Shown here: positions 12,777 to 16,530 of the stretch, one piece after another
How positions within the stretch are numbered: the stretch's first letter is position 1
Layout: each line of letters starts with the position of its first letter
DNA from: a virus
Taxonomy: Duplodnaviria; Caudoviricetes
Virus record (IMG/VR): IMGVR_UViG_3300032373_001188
Span: 1-25,254 of that record
Direction: 5' to 3' (one strand)
DNA length: 25,254 nt
Notes under the pieces: generated by a model
Databases searched by the model: none
What the model was told of the DNA's origin: nothing
What the model saw: the letters and a program-made list of their open reading frames with translations, nothing else
Made by a program: the position numbers and the translations under genes

Positions 12777-14282
12777 GTGGGTAAGAAAGGCAAAAAAGGA
12801 AAAAAGCAAGCAGGGACACTGACGGGGCCAAGTCTAGCGACGAACCGACCAGACGCTTGGCTCGATGGTGTGCTTGATATGCTTCCTGATCCTGATCCGG
12901 TGCTGGCGAGGCTGTCAGACGGTGGCGAGGCGATGCTTTCATCAGCGGCGGCAGACGGGATCGTTTTCAGCTTGATTCAGACCCGAAAATCGGCGGTTTT
13001 GAGCCGGGAATTTCGGATCGTGGCTGGTGAGACTGGCGATGAGGCGAGTCCAGCAAGTGAAAAATTGGCTGCTGACTTCAAAGCAGACTTGGCATCTTTG
13101 GACCTGTACGGGCTCATTGGGCAGATATTAGGGGCGGCACTCTGGGGTTTTGTCCCCATAGAGCTGTGCTGGCGTGCGGAAGGGTTGAGCTTACGTCTGG
13201 ATAAGGTGCAGGCGTTGGAGCGAAGTTGGTTTGGGTTTGAATCCGACGGGTCATTGATGTTTCGCCAACAAGGCGGAGTGCCTGTACCGGTGGTAAACAA
13301 CAAGGTTGTGCTGGCCCGGGTTGGGGAGACGCTTTCCAATCCATACGGCGAACGGGCTTTGACTCGTTGTCTGTGGCCGGTCGCCTTCAAGAAGGGCGGT
13401 CTGAAGGCTTGGGTGAAGCTCGCCGAAGACATGAACCTGCCGTTGATGATTGGCAAGTATCAATCAGGCACCCCTGAATCGGAGCAGGTATCTTTACTCA
13501 GCGCCCTCTCAGCGGCCCGTGTTTCTGGGACAGCGGTGGTCGATCAAGGGGTTGAGGTTGATGTGGTGACCACGTCATCCAAGGGTAGCGGGGCTGGAGT
13601 GCATGAAGGCTTGGTTGATAAAATGGACAAGGTGCTCGCCCGGGTGATTACCGGCCAGACCCTAACCCACGATATCGGGCAAAGCGGCAGCAGAGCGGCG
13701 TCAGAGACCCATCTGCAGGTGATGGGCAGCATCCAGCAGGCGGATATGGCCCTGGTTCGCAACACCTTTGCTGAGATCGCCCGGACCTATCGGGACTTGA
13801 ACGACAAGTCCGCTGAGCCTCCAAAGCTGGTTTGGTTTGAGGAAGAAGACCCACAGGCGGAATGGGCCAACCGGGATGAGACTTTGAGTAAGCTAGGTGT
13901 TCGGTTCACCAAAGGCTACTTAATGGACAGATACGGCTTTTCTGAGGGTGATCTCGATGTAGTTGAGCCACCGCAACAAAAAACCGGTTCAGGGCCGGTT
14001 GAATCGTCAAATTCGGGGGATTTCTCGGAGCAAGGGGACTTGATCGGTGAGTTAGCTGGAGATTTACAGCCTATCGCCAGATGGGCGATGAGCGAAGCGG
14101 AGCGTGAGGAGGCGGATTTATTGGGGATGCTGGGGGAAGAGATCACATCGGCAAAGAATTTTGAAGAGCTTGGGGCAGCTTTGGATAGCTTAGCTGAAGC
14201 CGGCCCGGCAGAACCTTTGGCAATCGCCCTCGCAGCGGGACGGGTTTTAGGCCGGGGAGAGGCGAAAAATGGCCAAGGCTAG
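12777..14282 (+). CDS. Portal protein (Mu gp29 / DUF935)
   Basis: GTG start after GGGGAG; LPDPDPVL, RKSAV, NPYG..L..CLWPV.FK..G...W, P...GKY, GQTLT, GSRAASETH, GVRFT..Y....YG motifs. Confidence 0.92.
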   Translation: MGKKGKKGKKQAGTLTGPSLATNRPDAWLDGVLDMLPDPDPVLARLSDGGEAMLSSAAADGIVFSLIQTRKSAVLSREFRIVAGETGDEASPASEKLAADFKADLASLDLYGLIGQILGAALWGFVPIELCWRAEGLSLRLDKVQALERSWFGFESDGSLMFRQQGGVPVPVVNNKVVLARVGETLSNPYGERALTRCLWPVAFKKGGLKAWVKLAEDMNLPLMIGKYQSGTPESEQVSLLSALSAARVSGTAVVDQGVEVDVVTTSSKGSGAGVHEGLVDKMDKVLARVITGQTLTHDIGQSGSRAASETHLQVMGSIQQADMALVRNTFAEIARTYRDLNDKSAEPPKLVWFEEEDPQAEWANRDETLSKLGVRFTKGYLMDRYGFSEGDLDVVEPPQQKTGSGPVESSNSGDFSEQGDLIGELAGDLQPIARWAMSEAEREEADLLGMLGEEITSAKNFEELGAALDSLAEAGPAEPLAIALAAGRVLGRGEAKNGQG

Positions 14283-15366
14283 CGGGACCGGCGCACCACC
14301 CGCTGTGGTTGAGGCTTTGCTGGGTAAGGTGCCTCTGACGTCCGAAGGGTTTGTTGATCTAGCCACAGTGGACTATCAGGCCACGGCGGCGGCGTTTACG
14401 GCCTCTGGGCTCAGCAGTTTGAGTTTAGTGGCTCGGTTGCAAAAAGACCTGGCAACAGCGATCAGCGAGGGGCAGAGCCTAGGTAGTTTTAAGGCCCAGG
14501 TATCAACAAAGCTCAAGGAGGCTTTGTCAGACAATAGGCTTGAGTTGATCTACAGGATCAACGTGCACCAAGCGTACATGGCAGGGCGGTGGGAAGGGAT
14601 CAACGAGTCGAAGGACGACTACCCCTACTTGCAGTATGACGCTCTGGACGATGGCCGGTCTCGACCGGCGCACCAAGCGTTGGACGGGGTTGTGTATCCA
14701 GTTGATAGCCCCTTTTGGTCAGGTCATTACCCACCGAACGGGTTTCGGTGTCGGTGTAACGTGCGGCAGGTTTCCAGGGAATCGCTGGACCGAAAGGGAT
14801 TAAAGGTGAGTCAGGCCAAACCGAAAAATCAGCCGGCTCCTGACCCTGGGTGGAACGGGAATCAGGCGAAGGACCAGGTGGCTTATTTGTCGGGTTTGGA
14901 AGCCAAGAAGCTGGGGTCTGTGTCGGCGGGTTTTGCTCGTCGGTATATTTTGGGTAAGAACAGACGAGATCCGAGTTTTCAGCACTTCACTTTAGGTAAG
15001 GGTTTGCCTCATGAGATACGGCCCATCGGAGTGATTGATTCGGCAGTTGCGGCAGAGCTTGGCTCTGAAACCCAAGTGGTTTATTTGAAAGCCGAAGTGG
15101 CGGCGAAGCAGTGGCGGAATCATCCAGAGATAGGGCCAGACGCCTATTTGGGTCCGTTGGGTAAGACGTTAAAAACAAGCCCGGACCTTATTGTTAATGC
15201 AGAGGAAGGCAAGCAGTATTTTTACCGTGTTAGGGGGGATAAAAAGAAATTGTGGAAGGCTGTTGTGAGGAAAGACCAAGGCCGGCTGCTGCTGGTCAGT
15301 TATCACAAAGTGAACTTGAGAGACCTTTCCGCAGCGGTCAAAAAAACACTACGGAAAGGCGAGTAG
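14269..15366 (+). CDS. MuF (gp30) minor head protein with C-terminal PBECR-like nuclease domain
   Basis: MuF motifs RLELIYRIN..QAY.AGRW, YLQY.A..DGR.RPAH, FW..HYPPNGFRCRC, PDPGW..N. C-terminal ~115 aa contains PIGV, KQ...HPEI...Y, AVV and LLVSYH. Confidence 0.88.
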   Translation: MAKASGTGAPPAVVEALLGKVPLTSEGFVDLATVDYQATAAAFTASGLSSLSLVARLQKDLATAISEGQSLGSFKAQVSTKLKEALSDNRLELIYRINVHQAYMAGRWEGINESKDDYPYLQYDALDDGRSRPAHQALDGVVYPVDSPFWSGHYPPNGFRCRCNVRQVSRESLDRKGLKVSQAKPKNQPAPDPGWNGNQAKDQVAYLSGLEAKKLGSVSAGFARRYILGKNRRDPSFQHFTLGKGLPHEIRPIGVIDSAVAAELGSETQVVYLKAEVAAKQWRNHPEIGPDAYLGPLGKTLKTSPDLIVNAEEGKQYFYRVRGDKKKLWKAVVRKDQGRLLLVSYHKVNLRDLSAAVKKTLRKGE

Positions 15367-15427
15367 GTGCCAGGCGGGGCTAGTCTCACCCGCACGGGGT
15401 AGCTTTTTAACGAGTTCTTCAGCACCT
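15365..15427 (+). ncRNA. Candidate structured RNA element immediately after the muF stop
   Basis: AGGTGC(15365-70)/GCACCT(15422-27) closing stem; GCGGG(15374-78)/CCCGC(15389-93) hairpin; weak third stem 15396-15420 or a GCTA/TAGC pseudoknot. Confidence 0.35.
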
Positions 15428-15465
15428 GAGGCCATTATAAACGAACGACCCATGGAGTCAAGCAG

Positions 15466-16530
15466 ATGAACTGGATGCAGCTTTTTCGAACGGGGACACA
15501 CACCGATGCTAGCGGAAAAAAACGGGTTTGGTCTAAGCAAGATCTAGAAACAATCGCCAGCAAATACAACGAAGGCAAGCACGAAGCACCGCTTGTTGTT
15601 GGGCACCCGAAGGACAACGACCCGGCTTACGGTTGGATCAAGGCGCTGCGAGTGGCCGGTGAGGTGCTCGAAGGGCTGCCGAGGCAAGTCAACGCAGCCT
15701 TTGGCGAACTGGTCAATCAGGGGGCCTACAAAAAACGCTCGATCAGTCTGTACCCAGACATGACCTTGCGGCATGTGGGTTTTTTAGGGGCCATGCCGCC
15801 CGCCGTTAAAGGGCTCAAGGACGTATCTTTTAGTGATCAACACGGTGCAGGGGAAGCGTTGGTCTTTGATTTCAGTGACCCTGAGGACAATACAAACAAC
15901 AACGATAATAGCAAGGGAGAAGACAACATGAAGCGATACTTGTTACTCGCAAACGGGAAAGTGTTTGACCAAGAAAAAGGCAAGCTCGTTGAAGACGGCG
16001 ACGCCGAATACGAAGCTTGGATCAAAGACGGCAACGAGCCGGAAGGGGACGAAGACGATAAGGAGCCAGCCGGCGACCACAGTGAGCCTGGACCTGAACC
16101 AAAAGCCTTGGTTTGGAAGAAGACGGGACAAAAAGGCCAATCGTCAAGCGGGCCTGCTTCGGACCATTCAGGGCCAACGGCACGTGAGATCGAGTTGACC
16201 CGAAGGTTGGACTTCGTTGAAGCCAAAGCACGGAAAGACAAAGCAGATTCAATTGTGGAAAGGCTGGTGTCTAACGGACAGCTCACTGGGGATCAGTCCA
16301 GAGGGTTGGCTGAATACATGGCCAGCACAGAGGCAGAGGGCACGGTGCTTGAGTTTGCTGATGGCAGCAAAAAGCCAGGTGCCAACTTCTTGAGCGAGTT
16401 TCTGTCAAAACTGCCGAAGCAAGGGCACTTGGACCCACTTGGCCCCGGGGCGGTTGCAGAATTCGCAGAAGACGACAAGACAGCAAACTCGATCGCAGAG
16501 GCCAGCGGATTTGGCCCCCAAAAATCGTAG
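15466..16530 (+). CDS. Prohead protease I with C-terminal scaffold region
   Basis: GGAG RBS; FRTGTHTD, HEAPLVVGHPK...PAYGW, YKKRSISLY, LRHVGFLGA.PPAVKGL motifs. Confidence 0.9.
   Translation: MNWMQLFRTGTHTDASGKKRVWSKQDLETIASKYNEGKHEAPLVVGHPKDNDPAYGWIKALRVAGEVLEGLPRQVNAAFGELVNQGAYKKRSISLYPDMTLRHVGFLGAMPPAVKGLKDVSFSDQHGAGEALVFDFSDPEDNTNNNDNSKGEDNMKRYLLLANGKVFDQEKGKLVEDGDAEYEAWIKDGNEPEGDEDDKEPAGDHSEPGPEPKALVWKKTGQKGQSSSGPASDHSGPTAREIELTRRLDFVEAKARKDKADSIVERLVSNGQLTGDQSRGLAEYMASTEAEGTVLEFADGSKKPGANFLSEFLSKLPKQGHLDPLGPGAVAEFAEDDKTANSIAEASGFGPQKS
15928..16530 (+). CDS. Probable scaffold protein from an in-frame internal start (Mu Z-like)
   Basis: AAGGGAGA RBS at 15913-15920, then in-frame ATG 15928 after an A-rich linker. 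Confidence 0.6.
   Translation: MKRYLLLANGKVFDQEKGKLVEDGDAEYEAWIKDGNEPEGDEDDKEPAGDHSEPGPEPKALVWKKTGQKGQSSSGPASDHSGPTAREIELTRRLDFVEAKARKDKADSIVERLVSNGQLTGDQSRGLAEYMASTEAEGTVLEFADGSKKPGANFLSEFLSKLPKQGHLDPLGPGAVAEFAEDDKTANSIAEASGFGPQKS

What the first reader, a model, noticed from the sequence alone, without database searches (positions are those of the whole stretch)
15016..15465. MuF-fused BECR-like nuclease with no immunity ORF, followed by a compact structured RNA: candidate toxin / RNA-antitoxin module in the head operon
Seen: after the MuF domain (ending near PDPGWNGN) comes a ~115-aa extension with KQxxxHPE and a terminal LLVSYH strand. Only 99 nt separate its stop from the protease ATG, leaving no room for a normal immunity gene. 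Starting within the stop codon, that spacer folds: AGGTGC/GCACCT closing stem, GCGGG/CCCGC hairpin, and a loop GCTA that can pair with TAGC at 15400-03 (pseudoknot). It is one of the longest spacers in an otherwise tightly packed late operon and has no terminator U-tract after the closing stem. Established: MuF proteins can carry C-terminal toxin domains, usually with a downstream protein immunity gene, and type III antitoxins are pseudoknotted RNAs. Inference: this RNA is the nuclease's cognate antitoxin or substrate, giving either a virion-delivered RNase held in check by RNA or autoregulatory cleavage of the late mRNA.
Basis: partly seen in the sequence, partly recalled or inferred. Interest (0 to 1): 0.8.

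Follow-up and report, generated by a model that had tools for sequence, protein, structure and literature searches.

The report
Antisense tRNA mimic beside phage nuclease
Right after the gene for a phage head protein that carries a predicted RNA-cutting domain, the opposite strand holds a strong promoter-like site and a small tRNA-shaped RNA, a pairing that recurs in many phages and is mostly missing where the enzyme's catalytic residue is lost, so the RNA likely acts as a decoy antidote to a toxin that the phage would carry in its particle.

Summary
The nuclease call holds: aa 243-365 is a PBECR3-like, colicin D-fold domain, and MuF-PBECR fusions are known. The RNA is real but lies on the other strand. 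The only sigma70 site with at least 10/12 consensus matches in the window (TTGACT-16-TATAAT, minus strand) points into a 63-nt RNA, 15427 to 15365, which ends at the MuF stop codon. It folds as an acceptor-like stem stacked on a T-arm-like hairpin with a loop-loop helix. The same layout follows 26 of 41 PBECR3-like and 10 of 20 MuF_C genes, against 1 of 44 MuF genes without an extension and 1 of 22 with other domains. It is called in 41 of 63 domains that keep the catalytic His/Arg and 1 of 11 that lack it. RNA motifs lead back to the nuclease in 32 of 34 and 36 of 40 hits. Stems covary, and MuF_C versions are anticodon-less cloverleaves that RefSeq labels tRNA-OTHER. Similar antisense units sit inside polyvalent-protein ORFs. 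Best reading (0.55): a tRNA-mimic RNA antitoxin made in the lysogen, replacing protein immunity. Expression, toxicity and binding are untested; ten literature searches found no description.

The parts
14269..15366 (+). MuF (minor head protein) fused to a C-terminal PBECR3-like domain, 365 aa, between portal and head protease in a Mu-like prophage
   Evidence: PF04233 aa 57-165; phrog_220
14995..15363 (+). Predicted BECR/colicin D-like RNase domain (aa 243-365); K280 (15106-08), H285 (15121-23), S344 (15298-300), H346 (15304-06)
   Evidence: AF2 pLDDT 83.8; VIA top hits BrnT Z6.5, colicin D Z5.9, CdiA-CT NC101 Z5.8; Atlas PBECR2/3/MuF_C clusters at 0.93; K and H invariant in 8 rows
15434..15461 (-). 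Antisense sigma70-type promoter TTGACT (15461-56), 16 nt, TATAAT (15439-34); predicted start about 15427; overlaps the protease ribosome-binding region
   Evidence: 11/12 match; only site with 10/12 or more on either strand of the 25,254-nt window
15365..15427 (-). Predicted 63-nt tRNA-like small RNA: 7-bp acceptor-like stem (15427-21 with 15371-65) ending in the MuF stop codon; no anticodon arm, no CCA
   Evidence: same layout in homologous loci
15374..15393 (-). T-arm-like hairpin GCGGG/CCCGC with 10-nt loop UGAGACUAGC, stacked on the closing stem
   Evidence: top hit in the window (E 0.029, 19.7 bits; next 8.8) of a model built from 17 segments of other loci
15379..15403 (-). Predicted loop-loop helix GCUA (15403-00) with UAGC (15382-79); keeps the family's invariant C-G and U-A pairs
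   Evidence: family helix paired in 70 of 70 cells, 2 of 5 columns compensatory; mapping onto the window is my inference
15324..15359 (-). Second strong hairpin just downstream of the RNA, inside the last codons of the MuF ORF; possible weak terminator or processing site
   Evidence: -20.2 kcal/mol on minus against -12.6 on plus; no clear U-tract
15466..16530 (+). Head maturation protease (Mu gpI-like); flanking gene, not part of the module
   Evidence: phrog_976, E 7e-65

Best explanation
A near-consensus promoter on the opposite strand points into a 63-nt tRNA-shaped sequence that ends at the stop codon of a MuF gene with a predicted colicin D-like RNase domain, and this RNA likely binds and blocks that RNase as a tRNA decoy, taking the place of a protein immunity gene. 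Shown: gene layout, promoter-like site, conserved and covarying RNA architecture, coupling to nuclease domains that keep the catalytic residue. Inferred: (1) host sigma70 polymerase makes the RNA constitutively, so it is present in the lysogen and during late expression; (2) the acceptor-like stem plus T-like arm, locked by a loop-loop contact, copies the tRNA elbow; (3) the domain is an active tRNase or related RNase, packaged with MuF and delivered on infection; (4) the RNA, lacking anticodon loop and CCA, occupies the enzyme without serving translation, protecting the producer and immune lysogens; (5) when the enzyme decays the RNA gene is lost.
For: Fold: the top 7 VIA rows are all toxin or toxin-complex structures, led by BrnT, colicin D and CdiA-CT NC101. 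Promoter unique in the window, with its start at base 1 of the stem. Objective call (stem + abutting hairpin + promoter): PBECR3-like 26/41, MuF_C 10/20, PBECR2 6/29, no extension 1/44, other domains 1/22; shuffles 6/123, 1/60, 2/87, 3/132, 2/66. After clustering at 60% identity: 20/28, 7/16, 6/25, 1/22, 1/20; PBECR3-like against the two controls p 3e-9. Catalytic His/Arg kept 41/63, lost 1/11, p 7e-4. Reverse searches from RNA motifs: 32/34 and 36/40 hits abut the matching nuclease class on the other strand. Covariation on sequence-only alignments: 13 of 21 pairs with two-sided change, 0/500 shuffles as high; loop-loop helix found unaided by RNAalifold; MuF_C-type cloverleaf 359/366 cells paired, 14 of 23 pairs compensatory, -27.1 against -16.7 kcal/mol for the other strand. 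RefSeq labels it tRNA-OTHER antisense to MuF; ARAGORN calls one a tRNA-Ala (1 of 58 loci). 0 of 36 end in CCA; 27 of 36 end within 7 nt of the stop. Tandem arrays of two different RNAs at L182 and L211, and an orphan RNA at L189, recall orphan immunity genes. No conserved antisense ORF.
Against: No expression, toxicity or binding data. The window RNA is a short, diverged form: not more stable than shuffles, missed by the full-length model R1, its D-like stem reduced to about 2 bp, and no close relative's DNA could be read. The domain itself passes no Pfam cut-off; Foldseek gave nothing at E 0.001, and VIA Z of 6.5 or less is middling. Exceptions: L117 keeps the active site with no RNA seen; KS10 (His-less) got a borderline call; L190 has the RNA with no nuclease seen in the fetched DNA. 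L007 and L212 domains are 83% identical yet carry unlike RNAs, which strains strict cognate recognition. PBECR2 RNAs are less tRNA-like (6/29). Class labels, promoter weights, thresholds and active/inactive calls are mine, and loci are related.
Confidence: 0.55

Rival explanations
1. The RNA is the nuclease's partner, not its inhibitor: the domain binds or matures it, and the RNA or the complex is the effector, for example a tRNA decoy against host anticodon nucleases or an RNA that sets target choice.
For: Explains the co-loss with the catalytic residue equally well. Unlike RNAs beside near-identical domains and arrays of variants would suit a variable specificity part. Iyer 2017 (PMC5512222, section 19) argued that PBECRs may spare host tRNA.
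Against: [quoted passage not shown]
Confidence: 0.2
2. Cis-antisense silencing: the convergent promoter and its transcript damp leaky MuF-nuclease expression by polymerase collision or base pairing (type I/VIII-like), and the structure only stabilises the RNA.
For: Strictly antisense position. In the window, read-through to the second hairpin would overlap about 43 nt of the ORF, and in polyvalent proteins the RNA overlaps coding sequence fully. RNA sequence need not match the protein.
Against: 27 of 36 RNAs end within 7 nt of the stop, leaving almost nothing to pair with; 10 of 36 have a U-rich tail at the closing stem; conserved D/T loops and a compensatory loop-loop helix point to selection on 3D shape; silencing would not stop protein delivered from a virion.
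Confidence: 0.14
3. One reading: a plus-strand pseudoknot in the late mRNA that is the nuclease's antitoxin or autoregulatory cleavage site.
For: The stems are self-complementary, so the late mRNA carries a mirror fold (-22.9 kcal/mol for 65 nt).
Against: Promoter, G-U pairs, U-tails and canonical D/T-loop sequences all favour the minus strand; sites scoring 9 or more lie on minus in 24/41 and on plus in 4/41 PBECR3-like loci.
Confidence: 0.05
4. No nuclease-linked function: the spacer holds a late promoter for the protease gene or a decayed tRNA relic.
For: In Mu a late promoter precedes gene I; the window RNA alone is not unusually stable.
Against: The element follows the nuclease whatever gene comes next (protease, gpG or other), is absent from 43 of 44 short MuF genes, and covaries.
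Confidence: 0.05

Closest known systems
MuF-PBECR fusions and polyvalent proteins (Iyer et al. 2017, PMC5512222; section 19 and passages read)
   Same: MuF fused to a predicted BECR RNase with helix His (or Arg) and last-strand Ser/Thr; Mu gpF carries an inactive version.
   Different: The main text has no hit for antisense, noncoding or ncRNA; no immunity was proposed in the passages seen.
MuF polymorphic toxins (Jamet et al. 2017, PMC5576092; passages read)
   Same: Virion head protein with a C-terminal toxin; lysogens proposed to be immune.
   Different: Immunity there is a small downstream protein ORF; here a 99-nt spacer holds an antisense RNA gene.
Type III toxin-antitoxin systems: ToxIN, AbiQ, CptIN, TenpIN, and AbiF/RCd22 (PMC12373285; passages read)
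   Same: RNase toxin paired with a small structured, pseudoknotted RNA that would inhibit it by binding.
   Different: Those RNAs are repeat arrays upstream of and co-transcribed with the toxin, and the toxins are ToxN- or AbiF-like. Here a single tRNA-like RNA lies downstream and antisense with its own promoter, and the toxin is a BECR domain on a structural protein.
tRNA mimics: YrlA Y RNA (PMC10424219, passage), allo-tRNAs near TA loci (PMC5389517, passages), B. cereus tRNA-Other (PMC3399842, search listing)
   Same: Non-translating RNAs that keep tRNA shape.
   Different: None was tied to a BECR nuclease in what I saw; no Rfam match in the window or in 20 loci.
Colicin D and CDI tRNases (PDB 5znm, 1tfk, 5i4q)
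   Same: Predicted fold; helix Lys/His and last-strand His/Ser in the colicin-like group (10.64898/2026.08.28.747851, passages).
   Different: Neutralised by immunity proteins; delivered as bacteriocins or by contact.

Membership tests
PBECR (phage BECR) domain | N-terminal helix followed by a 4-5 strand meander | tested here: met
   AF2 model, pLDDT 83.8; best structural matches are BECR RNases, Z 4.7-6.5
PBECR (phage BECR) domain | His in the helix and Ser/Thr in the last strand | tested here: met
   H285 and S344, aligned with PBECR3-like rows
PBECR3 (PF18812) | Score above the Pfam cut-off | tested here: inconclusive
   No PBECR hit for the window domain; aligned relatives L005 (64.6 bits) and L051 (48.6) pass; Atlas neighbours are PBECR2/3
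PBECR (phage BECR) domain | RNase activity | not testable with these tools
   Predicted only, here and in PMC5512222
MuF polymorphic toxin | MuF domain plus C-terminal toxin domain in the head module of a temperate phage | tested here: met
   provirus record
MuF polymorphic toxin | Small downstream protein immunity ORF | tested here: not met
   99-nt spacer without a plus-strand ORF; antisense ORFs not conserved, 0-180 aa
Type III TA (ToxIN/CptIN/TenpIN) | Antitoxin as tandem repeats upstream of, and co-transcribed with, the toxin | tested here: not met
   Single RNA, downstream, opposite strand, own promoter
Type III TA (ToxIN/CptIN/TenpIN) | ToxN-like toxin family | tested here: inconclusive
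   No such Pfam hit; best structural matches are BECR
Type III TA (ToxIN/CptIN/TenpIN) | Pseudoknotted RNA | tested here: met
   Covarying loop-loop helix in relatives; 4-bp counterpart in the window
Type III TA (works like) | RNA inhibits the toxin by direct binding | not testable with these tools
   Needs bench work
tRNA | Cloverleaf with anticodon loop and CCA end | tested here: not met
   ARAGORN negative for the window locus, positive for 1 of 58 loci; no CCA in 36
tRNA-like mimic | Acceptor-like stem stacked on a T-arm, with D/T-loop contact | tested here: met
   canonical D and T loops only in the MuF_C class, derived loops in the window's class

The most novel reading that the evidence does not exclude
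Phages have a widespread, overlooked immunity system made of RNA: every active PBECR/LPD3-type nuclease domain, whether on MuF or inside a giant polyvalent protein, is followed by its own antisense promoter and a small tRNA-derived RNA (written inside the coding sequence where needed) that neutralises it as a tRNA mimic. Variant RNAs collect in arrays like orphan immunity genes, so virion-delivered RNases and tRNA-mimic antidotes form a polymorphic toxin-immunity network between temperate phages.
Probability: 0.4. Interest if true: 0.95.

Novelty: categorically new. Interest (0 to 1): 0.86.

Why it matters
PBECR domains occur in up to 26% of phage polyvalent proteins and on MuF of many Mu-like phages (PMC5512222), yet have no known target or immunity. 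A partner RNA makes them testable: it offers a way to clone the toxins, hints that tRNA is the target, and predicts which domains are alive. It would be a polymorphic toxin family with RNA rather than protein immunity and a case of tRNA recruited as an antitoxin, neither of which my searches found described. It would also explain the tRNA-OTHER annotations in Mu-like prophages (229 of 5,426 complete E. coli genomes match one query RNA region) and the low-complexity linkers after nuclease domains in polyvalent proteins as overprinted RNA genes.

Tried and rejected
Rfam: nothing at gathering score in the window or 20 loci, only chance hits by E-value. Folding z-scores do not separate the strands or beat shuffles. 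Close relatives: only P0003 (59% over the domain) was found as protein; viral and metagenome scans gave no second locus beyond an identical copy; alignment A1 was too diverged to scan with; the search for longer proteins gave one hit, not followed up. Foldseek against PDB: no hit at E 0.001. Model R1 of the long RNA type did not find the window RNA or the short and GATGAG types. Alignment A4 of short types with the window was too poor to count pairs on. No RNA holder listed among public runs; two DNA runs, possibly the source, match without variants. The stem-plus-hairpin rule without the promoter is uninformative, since about 80% of shuffles pass. An antisense immunity peptide (40-aa GTG ORF at 15425) was rejected as unconserved. 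The protein tree shows RNA types clustered (9 changes against 17.1 shuffled), but kinship alone gives that, so it is not used as proof of co-evolution. The Fisher line '0/11' was written before the output and is wrong; the corrected 1/11 is. Earlier scan notes gave nothing on this RNA.

Full report
Setting. The window is an IMG/VR provirus record of a Mu-like phage: transposase, AAA protein, GemA, Mor, portal, MuF, protease, decoration and capsid genes. Two DNA runs from microbial mats hold it and may be its source.

The protein. ORF 14269-15366 has a MuF domain (aa 57-165) and a C-terminal extension that passes no Pfam cut-off. Its nearest Atlas clusters carry PBECR2, PBECR3 or MuF_C (0.93). 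A search of 1.84 billion representatives gave 8 hits (itself, six weak relatives, one spurious), with K280 and H285 invariant in the 8 aligned rows. The AlphaFold model (pLDDT 83.8) is a helix plus meander. Foldseek found nothing significant. VIA ranked BrnT (Z 6.5), colicin D (5.9), CdiA-CT NC101 (5.8) and other toxin RNases first; these Z values are middling but consistent. MuF-PBECR fusions with helix His/Arg and last-strand Ser/Thr are described, and Mu gpF is noted as inactive (PMC5512222, section 19). The protein half is therefore a new member of a known kind.

The RNA is on the other strand. The promoter scan showed TTGACT-16-TATAAT on the minus strand at 15461-15434, the only site with 10 of 12 or more matches in the whole window. 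Seven bases after the -10 box lies A15427, the first base of the closing stem. Read this way the RNA is 63 nt: a 7-bp stem whose seventh pair is U-G (C-A on plus), a 5-bp hairpin GCGGG/CCCGC with a 10-nt loop stacked on it, and a 3' end inside the MuF stop codon. A second hairpin follows (-20.2 kcal/mol on minus, -12.6 on plus).

Relatives. I fetched 160 MuF loci and 8 cultured-phage loci. Of these 168 plus the window, 158 were classified (one lacked the search motif, ten ran off the locus): 42 PBECR3-like (A, with the window), 29 PBECR2 (B), 20 MuF_C (C), 23 other domains, 44 without extension. Classes came from my own hand-seeded profiles, checked by Pfam on 45 of 113 extensions. A fixed rule (closing stem of 6 bp or more near the stop, abutting hairpin, antisense promoter 2-16 nt before the stem; promoter weights approximate, from memory) called 26/41 A, 10/20 C, 6/29 B, 1/44 short and 1/22 other, against 1.7-4.9% of shuffles (two loci lacked downstream DNA). 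By 60% clusters: 20/28, 7/16, 6/25, 1/22, 1/20. A covariance model added nine class A loci that the rule had missed, giving 35 of 39 with the catalytic residue. In 27 of 36 called A and C loci the RNA ends within 7 nt of the stop; none ends in CCA; 10 have a U-rich tail.

Loss with the active site. Domains judged by eye to lack the helix His/Arg (Mu, Tongde, VW-6B, Kp4852-3, B23, KS10, JBD18, DMS3, L035, L078, L082) were called in 1 of 11 (KS10, borderline), those keeping it in 41 of 63 (p 7e-4). Some of the 11 are kin. In Mu, Tongde, VW-6B, JBD18 and DMS3 the next gene abuts or overlaps the stop. L082 is a decayed relative of the RNA-bearing L073 and L083.

Reverse test. A 21-nt motif of the long class A RNA hit 34 viral contigs, and 32 lie just past a class A domain on the other strand (two are contigs already held). 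L189 is an orphan beyond a different nuclease-like MuF and a small ORF; L190 has no nuclease seen. A class C motif hit 40 contigs, 36 beside a class C domain; two more are at contig ends and two are not tRNA-like (22 distinct RNA strings, many kin).

Structure. On a sequence-only alignment of 14 long class A RNAs, RNAalifold found a 5-bp helix between the two loops, paired in 70 of 70 cells with compensatory swaps in two columns. My full structure has 13 of 21 pairs with two-sided change, above all 500 shuffles and all slid controls, though the acceptor is only 58% paired there because of misalignment. Sixteen class C RNAs form a cloverleaf with canonical D- and T-loop sequences and a variable hairpin in place of the anticodon loop (359 of 366 cells paired, 14 of 23 pairs compensatory). 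RefSeq annotates these as tRNA-OTHER abutting the MuF stop on the opposite strand. The window RNA is a minimal form: the full-length model misses it, but a model of 17 T-arm segments from other loci ranks it first in the window on the minus strand (E 0.029; next E 9).

Beyond MuF. In 9 LPD3 or PBECR1 loci, eight of them in frames over 1,000 aa, the best antisense promoter-like site 78-225 nt after the domain outscored every other tile of the locus in 8, inside the reading frame; in 6, by eye, a closing stem with a U-tract ends at the domain boundary. This is a small sample, two loci share a genome, and these RNAs are not clearly tRNA-like. L211 and L182 carry two different RNAs in tandem. L007 and L212 have 83% identical domains but unlike RNAs.

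Mechanism. Shown: a conserved antisense small-RNA architecture tied to intact PBECR domains. Inferred: sigma70 makes it in the lysogen; it mimics the tRNA acceptor/T-arm elbow; a colicin D-like RNase carried in the head binds it and is blocked. Colicin-like BECR proteins mostly cut tRNA (10.64898/2026.08.28.747851, passage), and most recognised MuF toxins have a protein immunity ORF (PMC5576092, passage) that is missing here. I give 0.55 to the decoy antitoxin, 0.2 to a cooperating RNA-protein effector, 0.14 to antisense silencing, and 0.05 each to the plus-strand and no-function readings. That the RNA gene exists and is linked to the nuclease I put near 0.9.

Known systems and novelty. It would work like a type III antitoxin but fails that family's layout (upstream, co-transcribed repeats; PMC12373285, passages). 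It is a MuF toxin without protein immunity, and tRNA-like without being a tRNA. Ten full-text searches and term look-ups in the two main PBECR papers found no account of the RNA. The library lacks most subscription papers. I read passages only, of seven papers, plus one whole section, and no supplements; the supplement of PMC10690425 may list some of these RNAs without this context.

Noticed in passing
L257-L265 (LPD3 and PBECR1 in polyvalent proteins); L147:2770-2860, L099, L015: Antisense promoter plus structured RNA written inside the coding sequence right after the nuclease domain; the protein linker is the reverse read of the RNA gene.
   Followed up: partly
L211:1965-2260; L182: Two different RNAs in tandem after one nuclease gene. 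In L211 one resembles the L212 RNA and the other the L007 RNA; in L182 the second has a compensatory change in the loop-loop helix, and the MuF frame appears split.
   Followed up: partly
L205:1553-1632, L206:1550-1630: RefSeq tRNA-OTHER in Mu-like prophages of E. coli O157:H7 is the class C RNA; 229 of 5,426 genomes match the query region.
   Followed up: yes
L117:2199-3434 (minus strand): Active-looking PBECR3-like gene with no RNA; a large convergent ORF fills the gap and a promoter-like site sits at the stop codon.
   Followed up: no
L189:3-1390: Long ORF ending in a different BECR-like domain, then a small immunity-like ORF, then an orphan class A RNA; looks like a toxin swap that left the old RNA behind.
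   Followed up: no
L012, L014, L039, L103, L125, L130, L131: A subtype of the RNA with a conserved (U)GAUGAG motif before the last hairpin, clustered on the protein tree.
   Followed up: partly
class B loci, e.g. L031, L054, L058, L070: PBECR2 genes have the antisense promoter (19 of 29 score 9 or more) but RNAs of another fold, some sharing a GGGGGC(U)CACCC motif.
   Followed up: no
window:15434-15465: The antisense -35 box overlaps the protease ribosome-binding region, and a plus-strand TATAAA overlaps the antisense -10 box, so the site may be bidirectional and also serve as a late promoter.
   Followed up: no
window:16559-17245: A lambda gpD-like decoration gene is followed by a 110-aa gene with no Pfam or PHROG hit, ahead of a lambda-type major capsid gene, in a Mu-like genome.
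   Followed up: no
window:5641-6306: A phage lysozyme gene lies among the early/middle genes, before the Mor-like activator.
   Followed up: no
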